A stretch of 64,000 nucleotides of DNA, taken from assembly GCF_030684315.1 (NCBI RefSeq), contig NC_081359.1, positions 95,822,838-95,886,837 on the forward strand, read 5' to 3'. The notes under the pieces were generated by a model that was not told the origin of the DNA, did not search any database, and saw only the letters and a list, made by a program, of their open reading frames with translations. The stretch comes from Stegostoma tigrinum (taxonomy: Eukaryota). Numbering within the stretch: position 1 is the first letter of the stretch; each line of letters begins with the position of its first letter. The position numbers and the translations under genes were made by a program. Positions 31,996 through 56,593 of this stretch are shown piece after piece.

Positions 31996-32177
31996 GTCAG
32001 TTTAGATTTTCACCTACTTTTGCTCAAAGGTATGAGATAACTGCTACACTTTAACTCAAGATTTTTAGAAAAAATTTCAGTGGGTCATTTACTTATTACT
32101 ATGTTATAAGTGCCCATAAATTTCAGGTTCTAATAGCGAGGAGACTACTCTGTGGAGAAAGGACCACACAGTTGAAA

Positions 32178-32610
32178 GTAAAAACAGGAAGTGTTAGAGG
32201 AACTTAACAGCTCTGGCAGCATCTGTAAAGAGAGAAACAGAATTAAGATTTTTAATCCATGATGTGGAGGTGCCGGTGTTGGACTGGGGTGGAAAAAGTC
32301 GGAAGTCACACGACACTAGGTTATAGTCCAAAAGTATTTGAAATCACAAGCTTTCGGAGCATAGCCCCTTCATCACCTGACAGTCCGAAAGCTTGTGATT
32401 TCAAATAAACCTGTTTGTCTATAACCTAGTGTCGTGTGACTTCTGGCTTTGAATCTAATATGACTTTTTCTGGGCATGTATCTTCCGATGTGGCTGCTTT
32501 ACTAAACAATGTTGTAAGCAAATAAATCTGCTGCAAAACCTGCTGAGTTTCTCCAGCACCTTTTATTATGTCTGAGATTTTCCAGCATTCACAGTATTTT
32601 TGCTTTCACA
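32178..32610. mobile_element. nested Penelope-like palindromes (insert ~32259-32450 inside an older palindrome)
   Basis: Inner arms 32295-32358 / 32384-32450 with minus-strand gtgatga-aggggctatgctcc-gaaagctt; outer arms ...ctggcagcatctg / ...cctgctgagtttctccagc. Confidence 0.7.
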
Positions 32611-33446
32611 TAATTAAGGTTACTGATCCTATCAACGGTGCTCATTTGTTCCAATGTCCAACAACTGCTGGCTTGCTCTTCGTTTGTAAAATGTACGCTA
32701 CCTTCCTTATGAAACCATTTCATAGTATAAGCTGTATTCCGAGCTGAAACATACTAGCTGGTTTTCAGTCAGTAACAAATTGCAATTCCCTCAGGACACA
32801 GCTGGTGGTGAATGAAAGCTGGATACAGCTACCCTGACTGATCCAGAAACAGTGTCTCCATGAGTTGGTGCTTTCAGACCAAGGAGGTTTCCGATCATGG
32901 GGTAAGTCGCCCATTGGTCCACACGATATAGATCACGCAGCTAAACATTGGCTTCGCACGACGTCGTACCCAGTCAAACAGTCCGCTCTGATTGGCTGCT
33001 GGCTGTGAAATTTCACACACATGGGGCCGGCAACTGTTATGGCCGCACTGGATTTCCCCGCCCCCCGCAGAACAGACTGGCGCTACTCCAACGCAGCAGA
33101 TTCACTAATTATGCCGAAGGTAGTTGTTTTATCCGCGTCGATGATTTGAAATCTGCTGCTAGGGCCGGTCACAGAACTCCACCAAGGATTTGGGATTAAG
33201 GTTTAACAATTAGGATTTTATTGAAATTACTTTGCTGCACAACGCATTGGTTCGCCTTCGAGCTGTGGAGAATTCCCTAAGGTCCGGACGTACTGTCGTT
33301 GACCAAAACAACGATAGTGCTCATTGACTTATTTCTAAGGGTAAATGGTCAACATGCAAACTAATACGTCAGATTTTTTTTGCATTGAATGAATCAATTT
33401 TTGCACACGCGTGCGTGGACATATACGGAAAACACTGCTGGGAGGG

Positions 33447-33568
33447 TGGTCCTTCCACATTGTGGCTCTCCCATAGTGTTTTCAATGGGCCGTGGAGCGC
33501 AAATACAACTCGTGACATTGTGTGTCTTGTTATTTGATAGTCTCATGAAAGAATATTCCACAGGGTCA
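33447..33568 (+). repeat. duplicated structured element, copy 1
   Basis: Roughly 80% identical by eye to 34795-34907; self-complementary ends TGGTCCT / AGGGTCA. Confidence 0.8.
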
Positions 33569-34794
33569 AAAGAAAGCTATTTGCAGTGATTCTGAGAATT
33601 TAGGGTGGGTACGTCTGATTCCTTGGCAGTTGGAAAAAGAAACATGGGTTTGAAGAAAGTTAAGAAAGGAGCCCACACTGAATCATCCAGCCACCCGCAT
33701 CATGAGGGAGTATCTAGGTGTGAGAGTTTGCCTGCAGGAAGCGCTGTATCCTTCATTTGCTCGGAAGTGCGTTGCACTCCAATCTGCCTTTCGGATTACA
33801 CCGAGATGCTTTTTTTCCGTATTGCGTAAAGACGCGTGGTATTAGAGGATTGCTTCCCCCCCGCCCCCACTTGTTAAAACGGGGCGTAAATCGCTTCATA
33901 ATTTCAGTGATAGGCAGAAACGCTCACAAAGATCCTCACAGAACTCCAGAAATTATTTGAAGAGTACACAAAAGAGGCAAATCGGACGAGAGCATTTGAA
34001 AATAAAATCACAAACGCTGAAAATATTAACCAAGGCAAAACTTACATCTCGTGGCGTTTTCTGCTTCCTTTCTTCAAAGAGTATATATACACACAGTCTG
34101 ATTCAAAAATGCCTGTCACTAAGTGAGTTGCCTATTTGGAGAGCTGTCACAGACGCGGGGGGCCGAATGGACTGCCTCTGCATTTTCGTGGTGCTGTGTT
34201 TATGGCACCAGGTTAATTTGCACCGTTAAGGTAATTGAGAATTGTTCTTGCTCTCGCCCACCATCTCCCCCCCTCCCCCCGATTTAGGGTGCCCGACAGA
34301 GTCACTTCCTGTTTCGATATTCTAGCACTCCTGAAATGTTCTGAGGAAAAGGTTGAGTGAGACCTTTGATTTATCACTGAGGGCATTGACGGCTCAAGGC
34401 AGGCTACAGTATCCGCTGGTCTACAATGTATTGTTCCATGGCAACCCACAATGAATGAATGAAAGCCCCCACCTCCCATCGTTTATTCCGAGCAACATCG
34501 CACTACACTACAGTGCAGACCTGCGAGTTCAAGTAGATGTTCGCACACTTCAAACTGGGACTCACCAATTGACGATCATGGCCGCGTTGTTTTCTGCAGC
34601 GAATGGTATTTCCCCATTGACTTTCAGCAACAGGATGCTCACCAGGAGACCCAGTGCTTCTGACATGGTGCTGCTTGGCGATCTGTACCCCTCTCTCTGG
34701 CAATAACACGTTCAAAAAGGACAGCAGGCAACCGGCTGGCGGCCACATGGCCCAAGGAGACGAGATATTTGACACATTTTCACCTCACATCGTG

Positions 34795-34907
34795 TGGCCC
34801 TTCCACATTGTGGCGTTCCCGTGATGTCTCAATGGGCCGTGGATCGCAAATACAAGTCGTGAACTTGTGTCCTATTTTTTATTTGATAAGAATACTCCAC
34901 AGGGCCA
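34795..34907 (+). repeat. duplicated structured element, copy 2
   Basis: Direct repeat of 33447-33568; ends TGGCCCT / AGGGCCA; followed by an A-run. Confidence 0.8.
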
Positions 34908-35832
34908 GAAAAAAAACCTTCGACTGACACGACAGGCGCTGTATACGGTCCACAGGAATCAGGGCAGAGTGGATGTGACACACTGCTGGATGCAGATTGC
35001 AATGAGGGATTAGTAGGCGAATAAAAATCGGCTTTCCAACAGAGAGCAGCCGCCGTGAGCTCTTTTACGGACATAGATAAGTTATGTCCATTGACATTAC
35101 ACAACTGAAGCACTGACTCAACATTTTATGAATAACTGTTTTCGTCCATTTCTGTCTTAAGTACTGATTTTTATTTGACTTTTCTTCCTGAACTTGCAGA
35201 AAGAGTTAAACAGCAGTGCAAAACTATGTTAAAAAGAACGCGCGTTAAAATCTGTTCTGGTGCATATAGCTGATCTTAGGTGGAACTGTGGCGTACTGAC
35301 AGCTGGATTGTCACCTGTTGCAGGACAGTTAATTCTACACTCTGGTTGCAGTTTGAGAAGTGGGACTCTGTCCAATGAACCAACCTAGGAGTCAAGAGTG
35401 AACTTAATTCTGGAGCGAATGGAGGTGGCGGAAGCCAGATAAAGATGAGTTTTCTTTGCGCCTTGTTGATATCCGGACTTTAACCGGCTCCAAAGTAAGA
35501 TAGTTCCATCGTATCTCGGCGCTTCCAGATTAACTTTCTCAGCCCCATTTAAAATAAGTCTTACTAATTTGGTCTTTTCTGTCCCTGTGCCTCAGTTGCT
35601 GTTCCCCTTAATTGGTATTCTTGTGAACTGTCAGGATGATTGCAAGACTAGAACCCTCCGCAGAATATGTTTTTTGAGTACCCTAGATTCTACATTAACA
35701 AACACCTATTTTTATACCTGTGAAAAGGTATGATAAAAGACCAAATTGTATAGTTCAACATAATTAATTCTTAAATTGTTGTTTAATTGTTGTATGGCAT
35801 CCTGGTTGACAAGTGAACTCAAGTAGTGCAGG

Positions 35833-36055
35833 GATAATGGGAACTGCAGATGCTGGAGAATCCAAGATAATGAAGTGTGTAGCTGGATGAACACAGCAGG
35901 CCAAGCAGCATCTTAGGAGCACAAAAGCTGACATTTCGGGCCTAGACCCTTCATCAGAAAAAAATGATGAAGGGTCTAGGCTCAAAATGTCAGCTTTTGC
36001 ACTCCTGAGATGCTGTTTGGCCTGCTGTGTTCATCCAGCTACACACTTTGTTATC
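35833..36055. mobile_element. palindromic PLE terminal element with two opposed (decayed) HHRs
   Basis: Arms ~35866-35957 / ~35965-36055 separated by an A-run. Confidence 0.8.
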
Positions 36056-36203
36056 ACGTAGTATGGAGCTTTATTGCTTCATTGCTAGGCCATGCCGGTT
36101 TGATGAGCAAGTCAATATCTATGAAGTCCCCTAAGTATTCTCTCCAATAAGATGGCTTGGAGCACAGCTTGAACCCCACAAGGCAAGGACAAGCTGGACA
36201 TTC

Positions 36204-36431
36204 GAGATAACAAGGTGTAGAGCTGGATGAACACAGCAGGCCAAGCAGCATCAGAGGAGCAGGAACGCTGACGTTTTGGGCCTCGACCCTTCATCAGTGA
36301 TTTCTGAAGAAGGGTCCAGACCTGAAACACCAGCTTTCCCGCTCCTCTGATGCTGCTTGGCCTGCAGTGTTCATCCAGCTCTACACCTTGTTTTCTCAGA
36401 TTCTCCAGCATATGCAGTTCCTACTATCTCT
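36204..36431. mobile_element. palindromic PLE terminal element with two opposed (decayed) HHRs
   Basis: TSD caagctggaYattc at 36190-36203 / 36432-36445; arms meet at cttcatcag-tgattt-ctgaagaag. Confidence 0.82.
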
Positions 36432-39400
36432 CAAGCTGGATATTCAGTCAGGTGGAAAAACATGATCTGAAGACCCTATTTATTTAATGAACCAGTCTGC
36501 TGCAGAGGTAGAACCAGACAGTGCCAGGATGAGTGGATGACAGAAGTCGGGGTAAACATTATCTGAAAACTCCAAATTTGGGACAGCCAGCCCAGTGCAT
36601 AGTGGTAAGACCTCACACGGTAAGGTTAAGCTTGGTTTATGTAGGTGCTGGACAAGAAACTAGGTTAAGAAATTTGCACAGCAAAGTGAAATGAAGTGAT
36701 TTCAAATCTATCAGAACAGAATTGGGGTGACTAGATAAAGAAATCAGTTAGAACACTCCCAATTCAAAGTATATGGCTGCTAATATTATTTCACTGATGA
36801 AAATTAATGTATTCCTTTTGTTGAAATTGGATGGATACATTGTCTATGTATCTGAGTATTGCTGAAAAAAAAAGACAGGCTCTTGCATTAAGACTGATGC
36901 AAGAGTACCAAATTGAAAAGGAAACATTAATTAATTAAACAACATTGATTGATGACTATCTGCATCACTGAGTGACAGATGCACACTGTTCACTACATAG
37001 CACATGCATGATTATTAGATTGCATCTCAATATGACTATTTCAAGACTGATTATTTTTCACATTTAAACTGACGTTCTCACTCCTTCAAAGTCATTACCT
37101 CAATTCTGCCCTCAATTAAAATAGGGTGTTGTGTGGTGATCATTCTTAGAAAGCAATCAGGAATGAGAATATTTGAACACTGTTTAGCTCCTAAGGTCAG
37201 TAGTTGTTCTGCCTTGTCAGTAACTGAAACAAACACAGTCCTGGGATTAATCCGAGTACTTCCATGATCGATACATGTGTATCTTTTTCTTCTTCTCATT
37301 TATGAAAAAAAATGCTTTGTTTCCCAACCAGTTATGGTTTTGAGATATTTTCTAATCAACCTGTTCAGACAGATGTTATTGCATACCTCTGGAGCAGGTG
37401 AGACTTGAGCTCAGGCCTCCTAGCTCAGCGGTATGGACACTATTATAATACCACAACAGCCTTCACCAACTATGTTTTTTGAGTATCAGTTCAATAATTT
37501 ACCAGGTCTACTGTATCAGTACATTTATTGTTAACACATTTCTTATCGTGTGGATAAAACAACATAGGCCATTAATTTAAAATCACATTGATTGATAATA
37601 CAATGCAACTGTTTCAAGTTAAAATATTCCATTTGTTATCCCATTACTAGTTGCACAATCTGTTTAGTCAGTCAATGCATGTTAATTGCTTGTAGTTACC
37701 ACTCAATTATTAAAATACAAATGTTTCATTTTCAGTTTCCTCCAGATGCTGAGCTAAGGTGGATGGTGTTCAGGTTATGATGCAGGATAACTGGGCACAA
37801 ATCAATGTTGCCAAATTTCACACTTGATAACCTTAGCCCTTTGACAACCAAGAATTGTTTTCAGACCTGGCTAAAGGACCCTCCCTAATTCTGTTTAGTG
37901 CAGGTCATATTTCAGCAATAAAATTGATTAACAGTTAAAAGGAAATTTATGAAATATTATAATCTTTGTAAAGACATTTAAAAAAAGACCATTCTTCCAG
38001 TCAACAACTGAAGGGATAATGTGTCAAGTTTCATACTTTAAGATTTTTATAGTAAGATAAGATGAAAAGCACATCAATTAAACACTATTTTTGTCGGAAA
38101 CTTAGACTTTGTATCACAGAACAACGCTTTTCCTTTCAGCACAACTGAAATGCAATACACATATGCATCACAGGTGTATTTTACCAAATGCTTTAAGTGG
38201 ATATTCAGTTTGCCTGGAATTGATTCAATATGATTCTTAGTTCTCAAGGACTTACATCTGCTCTTTGTTTTTCTCAGCCTGGGAACTTTTAACCTTAGAA
38301 ATGTATTTTACGATGAGGATTTTCTCCCAGTGTTTCTTCCCCTTGTATACCTGGCAGCTCTTTCAGCCTCATTTTAACTCTTCATGATTTATTTTCTCCA
38401 ATCTGAGCATTAGCTCCCACTTGCATTCACCCAAAATGAACGCCAGTTACTTATACTTGTTTCCCCTACCCTGAATTCTTACTGACCACCTGTGCCTATG
38501 AGTTTTCAGGGAAGTCTTAGAAACCTTTCCCATGAAAGAAATCCATTTCCATGCCAATATGAATCACAGACTTTTTATGCTAGACAGAAATGCTGATTAG
38601 CTATTCTTGAAATCTCAAATCTCTAGTACCTTGGAGATAATTTAAAACATATCTGTTTACAGCCTGACCCACTCTTGGTGATTTTGAAGAATCGAGGGCT
38701 TTGGTTATTGTCTCTAAATACCTTGCACATCCTTCCCAATAAATCAAATTTGGTCCCCTTTAACATTTAGCAATGAAAACAACAAGATGTATTGTCGGGC
38801 AAACTTCAGAATAAGTTAGATGATCCTCGGTATCGTAACTAAAATTAAAAGTAAGTTTTCAAATTATAACAGTCATACTTTATCTAAGTTAAAAAGATGC
38901 CAAGAAAGAGAAACATTCTTTAGCAGTTCTTTTGCCCAAAGGGATGTCAAAACCATACTGCCATGTCTTCCATCATGGGTAGGAAATGATAGTGGTCCCA
39001 AATTTACCCTGGTGCTGTTGGCACCAATCTGATCCACTCCAGCTATTCAGTCAGCTGAACCCCGAAGCAATCAGAAACAAAATCAGAAATCGCTGGGAAA
39101 ACTCAGCAGGTCTGGTAGCATCTGTGGAGAGAAAGCAGAGTCAATATTTCAGGTCTAGGGAATCTTCTTCAGAACTGGAAGGATCCACAAAGAATCAGAG
39201 TTTCTCTGGCAACATATATGTTGCAGTCTGGAGGTATGAATGGTGATGGTTGACAGTCTAAGTTTCTTGACGTGACATTATCTGACCTGGAGTCACTTCT
39301 GCTCTTTTTGTTTGCCATTGACATTTGTTGAAAGGATTTATAGGTTGGTCACACACGGAAGTGAAGAGGGACATAAACGGAGCTTCTGGGTCAAGGGCAG

Positions 39401-40134
39401 GGATGCTACTCACTACAGCGTGTGACTTCCCATTTTGAACTGTTTACGTTAAAACTGATGCAGTCTGATTCATATCAAAATGCAAATTGAATTAAATGAT
39501 TTATTGTCACTTTCATTTTACAGTGAGTAATACAGGAAAATCCAGTGAAAATCTTCAACTGTCGCCACAATCTGGCACCATTTTGAATAGTTTAAGAATA
39601 AAAAAGATATAACTTTGTAAATATGATAGATGTAAATACTTATAAACAAAGATATAGATATGATATGGTATTGTATAGAAATCAGCGTAAAACTAACTTG
39701 TAATTAAAGTCTATGGAATATTGCAAATCCAGGGCTCGGGTACTATTTGCTACAGAGACGAAAATGGCCTTTCAAACATATGAGCAATGTGTAAAGTCTG
39801 TGCATTCTACTAAGTGTTCATTTTTTTCTTAAATGCTGCTTATTATGTCAAAATGTTAACTTGTGCTAATGTATAGATTGTTATAAATTACATAATATGT
39901 AATGCTCGTTAGTCGCCAAATTGGCATTCTGTCATCTCCTTAAGTGAGAGATGTAATTTTATGCATGTCCTTTTTAAGTAAGTTTTTTCTCAGATCATTT
40001 AATGTGCAGTTTTAAGCCATATTTGCACATGTACACAAATGATTCATTCCTTTCCCAAATCATATCTACTTGTTCAAATGAAATAACTTACATCTTGCCA
40101 AGGAGAATGATGAAAGATGTAAAACCAAACAAAG

Positions 40135-40800
40135 AACTGCAATCTGAAACATGGAAAAAAAACAGAAATTGTTGGAGAAACTCAGTAGATCAGGCAGCGT
40201 CTGTAAGAAGAACAAAACAGAGAAATGGTTTGAGTGACCTTTCTTCAGTACTAGTAGCAGCTTGGAGAAGGTACATATGCTGTTGATGGATGGGTAGGAG
40301 GAAAAGGAGCGAGTGGATAGGTGGAGATGAAAAAGACAGAGAGAGAGAAAGAAAGAGAAGAAACGGGTGAAGAAGCATCTGGGCCCGAAATGTCAGCTTT
40401 CCTGCTCCTCGGACGCTGCTTGGCTTGCTGTGTTCCTCCAGCTCTACACCTTATTATCCTAGACACACAAGGGGATTGTTGACAGTAAACCAGACAAGAA
40501 GAGAGGCTAGATAGGTGACAATGGGGGCTACAAGTAATTGAAAGTGGATTGGGGTTGTGCCGAAAGAAACCCATTTTATACTGGGAACTGGACTTACCGG
40601 GGTAGGTAGTACTCATGGAAGGAGGTGTTCATGCTCTGAAATTGTTAAACTTGGTCCTGAGTTCTGATGGCCAAAAGGCACCCAAGTAGAAAATTAGGTG
40701 TGGTTCCTCAAGCTTGGCTGGAACACTACAGCATGACTTCGACAGAAATGTTGGCATGGGAACACCGTGATGTGTTGAAGTGGCAAGCAACTGGAATCCT
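40135..40800 (-). mobile_element. old Penelope-like 3' end with a nested + strand PLE terminus (~40368-40460)
   Basis: Minus frame KLEEPHLIFYLGAFWPSELRTKFNNFRA* resembles the GIY-YIG C-terminus of the 52327 ORF. Confidence 0.65.
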
Positions 40801-41150
40801 GATGTCTTGCTAAATATGGAGATGGACTGCTTCAGAGTCTGATGAGTCTCAAATATTTCTGAACATTGTGTGACATCGGTGAACAGTCCCACTTCTAACC
40901 TTATCATGGAGAGAAGATCATTGATGAAGAAACCGAAGGTGGTTCGGCCAAGGACACTATCCTGAGGAACTCTTGCAGAGATGTCCTGGGTCTGAGGTAA
41001 CAACCTCCAACAACCACACCCATCTTGGTCTGTGCAAGGTATAACTCCAGTTTTCCTTTGATTTGCAATGACTCCAGTCCTGCTCAGTTTCCTTGATTCT
41101 GTACTTGCTCAAATGTTGCCTTGATGTTCGGGGCAGCCACTCTCACTTGA
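40800..41150 (-). mobile_element. LINE RT fragment
   Basis: Minus frame VPQDSVLGRTTFGFFINDL...LFTD; GNIWAS/DIKATF-type remnant. Confidence 0.75.
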
Positions 41151-43139
41151 CCTTATCATTGGGGTAATTGCACAAAGGAAGTGATTATTATTTATTAAGG
41201 TTGAAAAAGATGAAGCGATGCACCATTTCCTGAAGTCAAGCATTTCTTCCTCATCTATTCATACATTGTGTGTTTTCCAGGTTGGAAACAAAAAGTGCCC
41301 AGAGCGTTACAGGGCTGGTATACAAACCAGCTTCTGCAGAATGTGCAGTGACATTGCTGTAATATAAATTTAAACAGACACAGTTGACCAGGCAGTTTGC
41401 TTACTTGGCAAGCATCTGACCACATTGCATCCACGCAACGTGAGGATATTTGCACTTTGACATTTTTGGTCTGGTGATCAACGCAACGTTTGTTTTCACG
41501 GCTGCTTTGAGAACCTGGCCATCCTCTACCACCATCAGACCCAGTCTCTGAACTGTCAGCTCTGAGCCCCACCTCCATTCTTGATGGCCAGCAAAGGTGT
41601 GTCATAATGTGGTCAAACGGGTCAACTATAAATGTGCAAATCCTTTTGAAAACCTCTGTGTTAAAAATGGAAGCGCTTTCTGGTCAGAAAGAAGCATGTA
41701 GCAATTGTAGTATAACAGCCCGTCCATATTAGAAGACGCCATGTGCAGGTTCTGGCTATGAGAGATGACCACTTGTACACATTTTGAGCACCACACAACT
41801 CCCAGTGTTGACTCCATGGTAATTGTATTGATAGCTAAAATGAAAGCTCCATGTACGTGCTACTCAAGACTGTTTCTACAGAAAGGTATTCAGTTCTAAA
41901 TTACTTTACCTTATGATCTGAGCAAGTTAAGCATCAATGTTATTTATCCAGCTTGTTTATTGAATAATACTTGAACTAACTCTGGTTCATCATCTCTTGA
42001 TAGCCAAAATGCAAACCCTGGTGCCTGAAACTTGTCAGAATTCTAAAGTAAAATTGAATGTATCAACAATGGGGTGGAGTTATCCTGTGCCTCCAAGAAC
42101 TGGACCAGTACCAATATGAACAAGTTGACAGCACCTCTTGGGGTGACTTTTCAACTGGTTACCATTCGCTTCTGAGCTGAATAATACGGTTCCAGGAGCT
42201 AAAAGTTAAAGGAGAGTGCAAGAAGGCAGAAATAATATCATCTGTCTCACTACTGGCTGATACTTCCTTGAGGCTATTTTGATACATATTCATAGTGTCA
42301 TGCAATATGGAAACAGGCCCTTTGGTCCAACCAGTCTATGCCAACCAGAATCCCAAACTCAACAAATCCCATCTGCCTGCACTTGGCCATATTGCTCCAA
42401 ACATTTCTTATACTTGGTATAGACTAGCTATTGTGCAAACATTCAATCCTTGTGAAGTAGGTGGCCAGTGAATGCCTCTTAGAATGGAAACATATAGAAT
42501 AGGAATAGCAGTAGGCCATTCAGCCCTTCAAGCCTAATCTGCCATTCAATACGGTCATGGCTGATCATCTAACTCAATACCCTGTTCCCTTCTTCTCTCC
42601 CTATCCTTTGATCCCTTAATCCCAAAGAACAGTGTCTAACCCCTTGACAGCATTCGATGTTTTGTCTTCAACTGAATAAGATTATGGGAGTGTGATTTTA
42701 GAATAAAGAAAACTGTCTTTTTCACTTATTTCCCTGTCATACTTCATGAAACCCAATGCTAAGCAAAATCTAATTCAAATGCACCTTAATTCTGTTCTAA
42801 TCTCGATTGTTTTGTACTTCAGATAAAAAGTGGACGTGCTGACAAACTGTGGCCATTTCTGCAGCCATTGATGTAGGACTATTTTCTGCACTGAGAAAAT
42901 GAGCATTACTTTATGCAGTATTCCTTCATAGTTAATTCAATCACTTGATTTCATAAGTCAAGCGGATAATAAATACAATTCAGTAATCCATGGCAGGACA
43001 TGTACAGGTGATACAGATTAATCATGAATCAGTTTGGATAGTCATCACTGGCCAATGAAAATCACTATGACGAGTCTGATGAGCAAATAAATTCAGTGAA
43101 CATATGATATGAATGATGAATCTTGCATTCCTTATATGA

Positions 43140-43439
<300 letters not shown>

Positions 43440-56381: not shown

Positions 56382-56593
56382 GTGTAACCACAGTGCTGAC
56401 AATGACAACATTGAGCATTAGTGCACGGAATTCTCTGCCAAAAGTAGCTTACGCCACTGCGATGGACTGGTTCATCGCTGTGTGTTACGCATTTGTCTTT
56501 TCTGCTCTGATTGAATTTGCAACAGTAAATTACTTCACCAAACGAAGCTGGGCATGGGATGGGAAAAAAGCATATGAAGCTTTTCAATCTAAG
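56382..56593 (+). CDS. GABRA5: GABA-A receptor alpha subunit exon, TM2-TM3 and start of intracellular loop
   Basis: tttctcttcag|GTGTAACC...TCTAAG|gtaaga; 212 bp, in frame with the previous exon. [70 protein letters not shown]; WDGKKAxEA is alpha5-like. Confidence 0.93.

What the first reader, a model, noticed from the sequence alone, without database searches (positions are those of the whole stretch)
33447..34907. Two copies of an unrecognised ~115-120 nt element that fold alike: candidate novel structured RNA
Seen by hand folding, in both copies: a 7-bp closing stem (UGGUCCU/AGGGUCA with two G-U pairs; UGGCCCU/AGGGCCA); arm 1 UCCAC/GUGGA + GGC/GCC + CCRU/AUGG; arm 2 UACAA/UUGUG (extended to UACAAGU/ACUUGUG in copy 2); and a U/A-rich arm 3 around UUAU-UUG-AUAR. 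An A-rich tract follows each copy. Most differences fall in loops or keep pairing via G-U, which favours the + strand. A second conserved UCCAC near the 3' end competes for GUGGA, so the fold could be bistable. Both copies lie downstream of the putative promoter. I recognise no tRNA, 5S, Y, vault or snoRNA identity. Two copies are too few for statistical covariation.
Basis: partly seen in the sequence, partly recalled or inferred. Interest (0 to 1): 0.7.

Follow-up and report, generated by a model that had tools for sequence, protein, structure and literature searches.

The report
Twin orphan RNAs inside Gabra3 intron
Two old, well-kept copies of a 113-122-base sequence sit in a promoter-like island inside an intron of a GABA-receptor gene and match no catalogued RNA family; they likely encode a small folded RNA that would be cut out of a hidden non-coding transcript, but no such RNA has been shown.

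Summary
The duplication is real: two copies (33447-33568, 34795-34907; 97 of 129 columns identical) with unalignable flanks, the only two found in a 3.2-Gb vertebrate genome. They lie in a largely repeat-free CpG island with three CCAAT boxes, inside an 11-kb Gabra3 intron. No Rfam, tRNA, C/D or repeat identity. A shared plus-strand fold has modest support (consensus energy reached by 2 of 500 shuffles; 7-bp end stem plus stacked 5-bp helix in 22 of 20,000), but copy 1 alone folds no better than chance and no pair changes on both sides. Best reading (0.45): paralogous snoRNA-like small RNAs released from introns of a nested non-coding host transcript. Canonical H/ACA membership fails (no conserved second hairpin-ACA). 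One weak lead: the two UCCAC motifs could form a pocket above the end stem whose only rRNA match is the U equivalent to human 18S pseudouridine 1347. No RNA data or orthologs were available.

The parts
33447..33568 (+). Copy 1 of the conserved element (122 nt); end stem 33447-33453/33562-33568 with two G-U pairs; UCCAC at 33454-33458 and 33557-33561; GUGGA at 33492-33496; 10-nt insertion relative to copy 2
34795..34907 (+). Copy 2 (113 nt); perfect end stem 34795-34801/34901-34907; UCCAC at 34802-34806 and 34896-34900; GUGGA at 34839-34843
33568..33575 (+). A-rich tail of copy 1; fits ANANNA at two offsets
34907..34916 (+). A-rich tail of copy 2; fits ANANNA at four offsets
32913..33064 (.). 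Promoter-like block: three inverted CCAAT boxes ending at 32917, 32951 and 32995, and a GC box at about 33063; function inferred
   Evidence: one of 3 same-strand triple-CCAAT clusters within 90 bp in the 64-kb window
32900..35500 (.). CpG island, the only run of 500-nt windows with CpG o/e above 0.55 in the window; single-copy apart from short matches at 34117-34280, between high-copy repeats
33341..35199 (+). Candidate splice skeleton of a nested transcript: donor 33341, acceptor 34079, donor 34123, acceptor 35199, which would put one copy in each of two introns; consensus matches only, unvalidated
33428..33483 (+). 18-bp inverted repeat: copy 1's upstream flank (33428-33446) pairs with 33466-33483 inside copy 1
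34749..34906 (+). Interrupted rod: copy 2's upstream flank pairs with the 3' half of copy 2
31996..43239 (+). Host intron of the GABA-A receptor alpha-3 gene (Gabra3), same strand as the element

Best explanation
These are two old tandem copies of one conserved sequence that likely encode a small structured non-coding RNA, which would be released from the introns of an inferred non-coding transcript starting at the CpG-island promoter nested in Gabra3, in the way snoRNAs are released from snoRNA host genes. Shown: duplication, sharp conservation limits, low copy number, genomic setting, end-to-end complementarity. Inferred: RNA polymerase II starts near 33030-33100 on the plus strand; splicing puts one copy in each of two introns; after debranching, exonucleases trim back to the protein-bound, base-paired ends, leaving an RNA of about 115-125 nt closed by the 7-bp stem. 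Most speculative step (about 0.15-0.2 overall): with H/ACA core proteins bound at the ANANNA-like tail, the two UCCAC motifs would open into a pocket above the end stem and guide pseudouridylation of 18S U1306, equivalent to human pseudouridine 1347.
For: Copies keep 97 of 129 columns while 400-nt flanks have lost all similarity, which implies long selection on this block. Conservation ends where the end stem ends; a 7-bp end stem valid in both copies arises in 94 of 20,000 column shuffles, and with a stacked 5-bp helix in 22 of 20,000. Plus-strand consensus fold reached by 2 of 500 shuffles, structure conservation index 0.73 by 14 of 500; minus strand not significant. All 3 substitutions in consensus helices keep pairing on plus. 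Two copies only, 1.35 kb apart, in a CpG island with CCAAT and GC boxes, with splice-like sites placing one copy per intron and no ORF over 15 codons in that exon model. Pocket lead: 9 base pairs (6+3), a 3-bp upper stem directly above, 13-15 nt to an ANANNA; its only hit in 18S plus 28S is U1306, marked pseudouridine in human and Xenopus; 8 bp is the reported minimum (PMC6049503).
Against: No pair changes on both sides. Copy 1 alone folds no better than shuffles and its end stem has probability 0.00. With upstream flank included, both copies are predicted to refold: the end stem is not among the helices above 0.3 probability in either. No C box and no conserved second hairpin-ACA, so how the ends would be protected is unexplained. 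Splice-like sites are about as frequent on the minus strand (6 donors against 8). Guide scans over all shared pockets are at chance level (35 of 100 and 5 of 40 shuffled target sets do as well). The U1306 pocket was picked after the fact, a hit of that score arises in 46 of 500 shuffled targets, and the open-pocket fold costs 9.6-12.5 kcal/mol because GUGGA closes it. That site already has guides in human and Xenopus (SNORA4, SNORA67).
Confidence: 0.45

Rival explanations
1. The element is a cis-acting RNA structure that works inside a longer transcript (the nested non-coding RNA or the Gabra3 pre-mRNA), for example in splicing, processing or nuclear retention, and is never released as a small RNA.
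For: Same strand as Gabra3. No snoRNA boxes in working order. Each upstream flank pairs with its own copy far better than chance (copy 1: 0 of 1000 shuffles; copy 2: 0 of 1000), as in a co-transcriptional switch. The island holds other strong hairpins (33075-33170, z -3.6; 33290-33320, z -4.8).
Against: The two flanks pair with different parts of the element and neither pairing is shared (541 of 1000 and 952 of 1000 for the cross tests). Conservation limits that coincide with an end stem, tandem copies and a size near 120 nt fit a discrete RNA better.
Confidence: 0.22
2. The element is a duplicated DNA regulatory module (promoter-proximal or enhancer sequence) of the CpG island; the pairing potential is incidental.
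For: It lies in a promoter-like island. No double-sided covariation. Copy 1 has no folding signal alone. Long invariant blocks can equally be protein-binding DNA.
Against: End-to-end complementarity at the conservation limits (22 of 20,000), strand asymmetry of the consensus fold and three G-U-compatible changes are not expected of a DNA module. Resemblances to SOX, FOX, REST or CTCF sites were weak and judged from memory only.
Confidence: 0.2
3. The copies are divergent but canonical box H/ACA snoRNAs (hairpin, H box AUACAA, hairpin, ACA-GGG).
For: AUACAA fits ANANNA and ACA lies 3 nt before a plausible end in both copies; size and setting fit. Fish and frogs carry guides missing from mammal-based catalogues (PMC6984369).
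Against: In this register I found no lower stem adjoining ACA for the second hairpin (helix list), and its first A pairs with GUGGA. Best shared target, 28S U3376, is at chance level (35 of 100) and is unmodified in human and Xenopus. No Rfam H/ACA match to either copy.
Confidence: 0.08
4. The copies are a neutral relic, such as a decayed MITE, SINE or retrocopy.
For: Short terminal inverted repeat and A-rich tail resemble mobile elements; copy 2 with its flank forms a degenerate inverted repeat.
Against: Only 2 copies found by DNA search, exact 17-mer search and contigs laid at 80% likeness. No target-site duplication seen in the sequence. Neutral copies would decay with their flanks.
Confidence: 0.05

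Closest known systems
Intron-encoded snoRNAs in non-coding snoRNA host genes (SNHG type; e.g. SNHG12 cluster in PMC6984369, passages read)
   Same: Tandem paralogs of about 120 nt, conserved against unalignable flanks, apparently one per intron, behind a CpG-island promoter, with no coding potential in the exon model.
   Different: No C/D boxes, no complete H/ACA layout, no Rfam match; host transcript is only predicted and is nested in a neuronal receptor gene.
Box H/ACA guide SNORA4 (18S pseudouridine 1347; Xenopus SNORA4 and SNORA67; PMC6984369 supplement)
   Same: The pocket above the end stem would address the equivalent uridine with 9 base pairs at 13-15 nt from an ANANNA.
   Different: One very long hairpin domain of about 115-120 nt, no conserved second hairpin or ACA, pocket closed in the predicted fold, no match to any Rfam model.
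Single-domain H/ACA RNAs (AluACA RNAs; trypanosome and archaeal single-hairpin guides; as summarised in PMC6984369 passages)
   Same: One large hairpin domain followed by an A-rich box-like tail.
   Different: Not Alu-derived, and the tail reads AAA or AGA rather than ACA; AluACA layout (H box before the hairpin) is recalled, and no such H box precedes these copies.
SNORA35 (orphan H/ACA RNA; its host, an HTR2C intron, is recalled) and miR-105/767 carried by CT-GABRA3 (PMC4164501, search listing only)
   Same: Small RNAs hosted in introns of neurotransmitter-receptor genes.
   Different: No sequence or family match; no microRNA-length hairpin inside either copy; here a separate internal promoter-like island is present.
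tRNA and tRNA-like elements (mascRNA type; features recalled)
   Same: Consensus fold has a 7-bp end stem with a 5-bp helix stacked on one continuous 3' strand, plus 4-bp and 5-bp hairpins.
   Different: No D-loop GG, no T-loop UUC, the T-loop position holds 52-60 nt; ARAGORN and Rfam negative.

Membership tests
Box H/ACA snoRNA | Hairpin-hinge(H box ANANNA)-hairpin-tail(ACA) layout | tested here: not met
   With AUACAA as H box the second hairpin lacks a lower stem next to ACA. With the A-rich tail as H box no second hairpin-ACA is shared downstream.
Box H/ACA snoRNA | Pocket with at least 8 bp to a target U about 15 nt from the box | tested here: inconclusive
   All-pocket scans against own 18S, 28S, 5.8S, U1, U2, U4, U6 are at chance level. 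One canonical pocket matches 18S U1306 with 9 bp (46 of 500 null). U5, U12, U4atac and U6atac not tested.
Box H/ACA snoRNA | Binding of dyskerin, NOP10, NHP2, GAR1 | not testable with these tools
   Needs RNP data.
Box C/D snoRNA | C box RUGAUGA near the 5' end and D box CUGA before the 3' stem | tested here: not met
   No RUGAUGA in 32800-35600 on either strand; no CUGA before the 3' stem; SNORD88 match 17.5 bits against a gathering score of 46.
Box C/D snoRNA | Antisense element of 10 nt or more to rRNA, kept in both copies | tested here: not met
   No plus-strand complement of 11 nt or more shared by both copies in 18S, 28S or 5.8S; the longest shared one found is 9 nt.
tRNA / tRNA-like element | Cloverleaf with D-loop and T-loop invariants, Pol III B box | tested here: not met
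   ARAGORN 0 genes; no B-box pattern in either copy; loops do not fit.
HDV-like ribozyme | Nested double pseudoknot with 7-nt L3, P1.1 GG and catalytic C in J4/2 | tested here: not met
   Fitted by hand to the helix list using recalled features: helix order can be mimicked but L3, P1.1 and J4/2 cannot be met together; no Rfam ribozyme match.
Vertebrate telomerase RNA | Template CUAACCCU | tested here: not met
   Absent from 32800-35600 on both strands; no Rfam match.
MITE / SINE | Dispersed multi-copy family with target-site duplications | tested here: not met
   2 copies only; no duplication seen at the flanks.
Intron-encoded small RNA of a non-coding host gene | Spliced Pol II host transcript and a discrete intronic RNA | not testable with these tools
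   Only promoter and splice consensus matches could be examined.

The most novel reading that the evidence does not exclude
A vertebrate class of single-domain guide RNA: one giant hairpin closed by a 7-bp stem, with an ANANNA tail and no second hairpin-ACA, whose internal GUGGA masks its own guide pocket until the RNP or the 18S target opens it, encoded in a non-coding gene hidden inside Gabra3.
Probability: 0.15. Interest if true: 0.8.

Novelty: new variant of a known kind. Interest (0 to 1): 0.5.

Why it matters
If true, this is an uncatalogued small RNA family and a hidden non-coding gene inside a major neurotransmitter-receptor gene, found from one genome. It fails both snoRNA box layouts, so a stable RNA of this shape would need an unusual way to protect its ends, and it would extend the list of non-mammalian vertebrate guide RNAs that mammal-based catalogues miss. 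It is cheap to test: one ortholog alignment and one small-RNA library decide most of it.

Tried and rejected
Expression: no RNA holder listed for 32900-35800 (4 runs listed, none on record as RNA); this says nothing on expression. Contigs of those 4 runs (at most 2 samples, 1 study, possibly the assembly's source) cover both copies with no differences and no extra look-alike contig. Homologs: a 20-mer scan of metagenome contigs gave 2 GC-rich loci matching only the 20-mer; viral contigs 0; earlier-findings look-ups by place and sequence gave nothing. A covariance model from the two copies found no third copy in the window (10 matches at E up to 5, only the two copies significant) or in 12 stretches (94,912 bases), mostly from paralogous GABA-receptor genes (4 matches, E 0.12-1.2); the model could not be run on the whole genome. 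A 13-mer genome search gave 149 places and was uninformative. Guide candidates rejected: 28S U3376 (unmodified in human and Xenopus); 18S U1282, which scored well (2 of 200 among the 9 end-stem pockets) but corresponds to unmodified human U1323, not pseudouridine 1326. No upstream element shared with own U2 or U6 genes was evident by eye. Small ORF in both copies rejected: the first 12 codons differ only by amino-acid changes and the frames then diverge. Bistability rejected on energy. Literature: searches (listings only) showed no description of this element; PMC4378963 mentions GABRA3 only for its editing stem-loop (passages); motif searches in supplements of PMC6984369 and PMC3789328 found no copy. 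The Xenopus supplement lists coordinates, and I saw no snoRNA sequences in the parts read (2, 3, 8 of 12), so a homolog there is not excluded; bioRxiv supplements and figures could not be seen. Short ORFs in the host intron were not scanned against Pfam.

Full report
Setting. The window is a stretch of a 3.2-Gb vertebrate genome (G000, contig C6), probably a cartilaginous fish (recalled resemblance of its repeats; not tested). It holds the 3' half of a GABA-A receptor alpha-3 gene on the plus strand: the only Rfam match at gathering score in 64 kb is the GABA3 editing element at 56441-56494, and that exon's best matches among solved structures are alpha-3. The finding lies in the intron 31996-43239. 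Inside it, 32.9-35.5 kb is the window's only CpG island, is single-copy apart from short matches at 34117-34280 and is bounded by high-copy repeats. It starts with three inverted CCAAT boxes 34 and 44 bp apart and a GC box; 3 such triple clusters exist in the window.

Observation. The two copies are real: 33447-33568 and 34795-34907, 97 of 129 columns identical, with 18 substitutions and indels of 1, 2 and 10 nt. The alignment score is 110 against at most 26 in 300 shuffles, while 400-nt flanks are at chance (86 and 215 of 300). Genome search finds 2 matches, an exact 17-mer 2 matches, and contigs from 4 public runs span both copies without differences or extra look-alikes (these may be the assembly's source). 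An old duplication whose flanks have decayed while the block has not implies selection.

Structure. Copy 2 folds better than 199 of 200 shuffles; copy 1 does not (77 of 200 as good). The consensus fold has a 7-bp end stem, a 5-bp GUGGA/UCCAC helix stacked on the same 3' strand, and small hairpins CCAC/GUGG and CCCRU/AUGGG. Its energy is reached by 2 of 500 column shuffles on plus and 46 of 500 on minus (these shuffles do not keep dinucleotides and flatter the result). An end stem valid in both copies arises in 94 of 20,000 shuffles, with the stacked helix in 22. Of 34 pairs, 3 change on one side and none on both. Unexplained: copy 1's upstream flank pairs over 18 bp with the part of copy 1 that differs most from copy 2 (0 of 1000 shuffles), and copy 2's flank pairs with its 3' half (0 of 1000), but neither pairing is shared (541 and 952 of 1000), and both displace the end stem in a precursor. 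The segments for these tests were chosen after seeing the folds.

Identity. No Rfam family matches either copy: 3 weak matches at E 2.4-9.9 in 33000-35500, 0 around copy 1, 1 partial at 17.5 bits against 46 around copy 2. No tRNA, C box, B box or telomerase template. The small ORF shared by both copies behaves as non-coding. No homolog was found in the collections that could be searched; no other vertebrate genome was available.

Guide tests. Using the genome's own 18S, 28S, 5.8S, U1, U2, U4 and U6, shared H/ACA-type pockets gave chance-level best scores: 47 pockets, 35 of 100 null sets as good (without U1 and U4); 346 relaxed pockets, 5 of 40. The top strict hit, 28S U3376, is unmodified in human and Xenopus (PMC6984369 supplement part 3). 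The best end-stem hit, 18S U1282, maps to unmodified human U1323 (supplement part 2). One pocket has textbook geometry (PMC6049503 passages): lower stem = end stem, 5' strand UUCCAC, 3' strand AYU, upper stem AUU/AAU, 13-15 nt to an ANANNA in the A-rich tail. Its only hit in 18S plus 28S is U1306, 9 bp, and the U/C difference between copies keeps the pair. U1306 corresponds to pseudouridine 1347, marked in the human and Xenopus rows and assigned to SNORA4 and SNORA67. Against it: 46 of 500 shuffled targets give such a hit, the pocket was chosen after the fact, the open fold costs 12.5 and 9.6 kcal/mol, and no second hairpin-ACA is conserved. It is a lead, not a result.

Mechanism. The arrangement most resembles a non-coding snoRNA host gene: promoter-like island, candidate exons at about 33050-33340, 34080-34122 and from 35200, one conserved copy per intron, no ORF over 15 codons. 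These sites are consensus matches, and the minus strand has nearly as many. I put 0.45 on a small RNA released from these introns, 0.22 on a cis-acting RNA structure, 0.2 on a DNA module, 0.08 on a canonical H/ACA RNA and 0.05 on a neutral relic. Shown: duplication, selection, setting, pairing potential. Inferred: transcription, splicing, release, fold, any target.

Novelty. Nine literature searches (listings only) and two supplement searches found no description of the element, and earlier notes of this scan hold no look-alike. Papers seen: PMC6984369 (passages, section 6 part 1, supplement parts 2, 3, 8 and term searches), PMC6049503 (passages), PMC4378963 (passages), PMC3789328 (supplement term search), others as listings. 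It works most like an intron-encoded snoRNA but fails the box tests, so I file it as a new variant of a known kind, unproven as an RNA. Interest 0.5.

Noticed in passing
window 33075-33170 (+): Long hairpin of microRNA-precursor size just after the GC box; z -3.6, 0 of 200 shuffles (best of 194 windows scanned); no Rfam match. Could be a lineage-specific microRNA or the 5' structure of the nested transcript.
   Followed up: partly
window 33290-33320 (+): Uninterrupted 12-bp hairpin with a 7-nt loop, z -4.8, just before the candidate donor at 33341.
   Followed up: partly
window 34796-34847 against L005 (28S 2392-2410): Copy 2 holds two 9-mers that are neighbours, in sense, in the 28S rRNA; 15 of 3000 null sequences do so, test chosen after the fact. 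Probably chance; the site is unmodified in human and Xenopus.
   Followed up: partly
window 33485-33589 and 34832-34927 (+): Both copies contain an ATG-initiated ORF of 34 and 31 codons starting MGRG; differences are non-synonymous and frames diverge, so likely not coding.
   Followed up: yes
window 56441-56494 (+): Gabra3 exon-9 A-to-I editing stem-loop is conserved here (69.3 bits).
   Followed up: no
window 34250-34320 and 34565-34582: Second promoter-like patch upstream of copy 2 (GC box, ETS-like site, CCAAT, YY1-like ATGGC); copy 2 might have its own start site.
   Followed up: no
window 35829-36431 and 32200-32580: High-copy repeats with inverted arms bound the island on both sides.
   Followed up: no
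window 33147-33152: TTTGAA (CHR-like, recalled motif) lies 150 bp after the last CCAAT box, inside the 33075-33170 hairpin; too far for a usual cell-cycle promoter layout.
   Followed up: no
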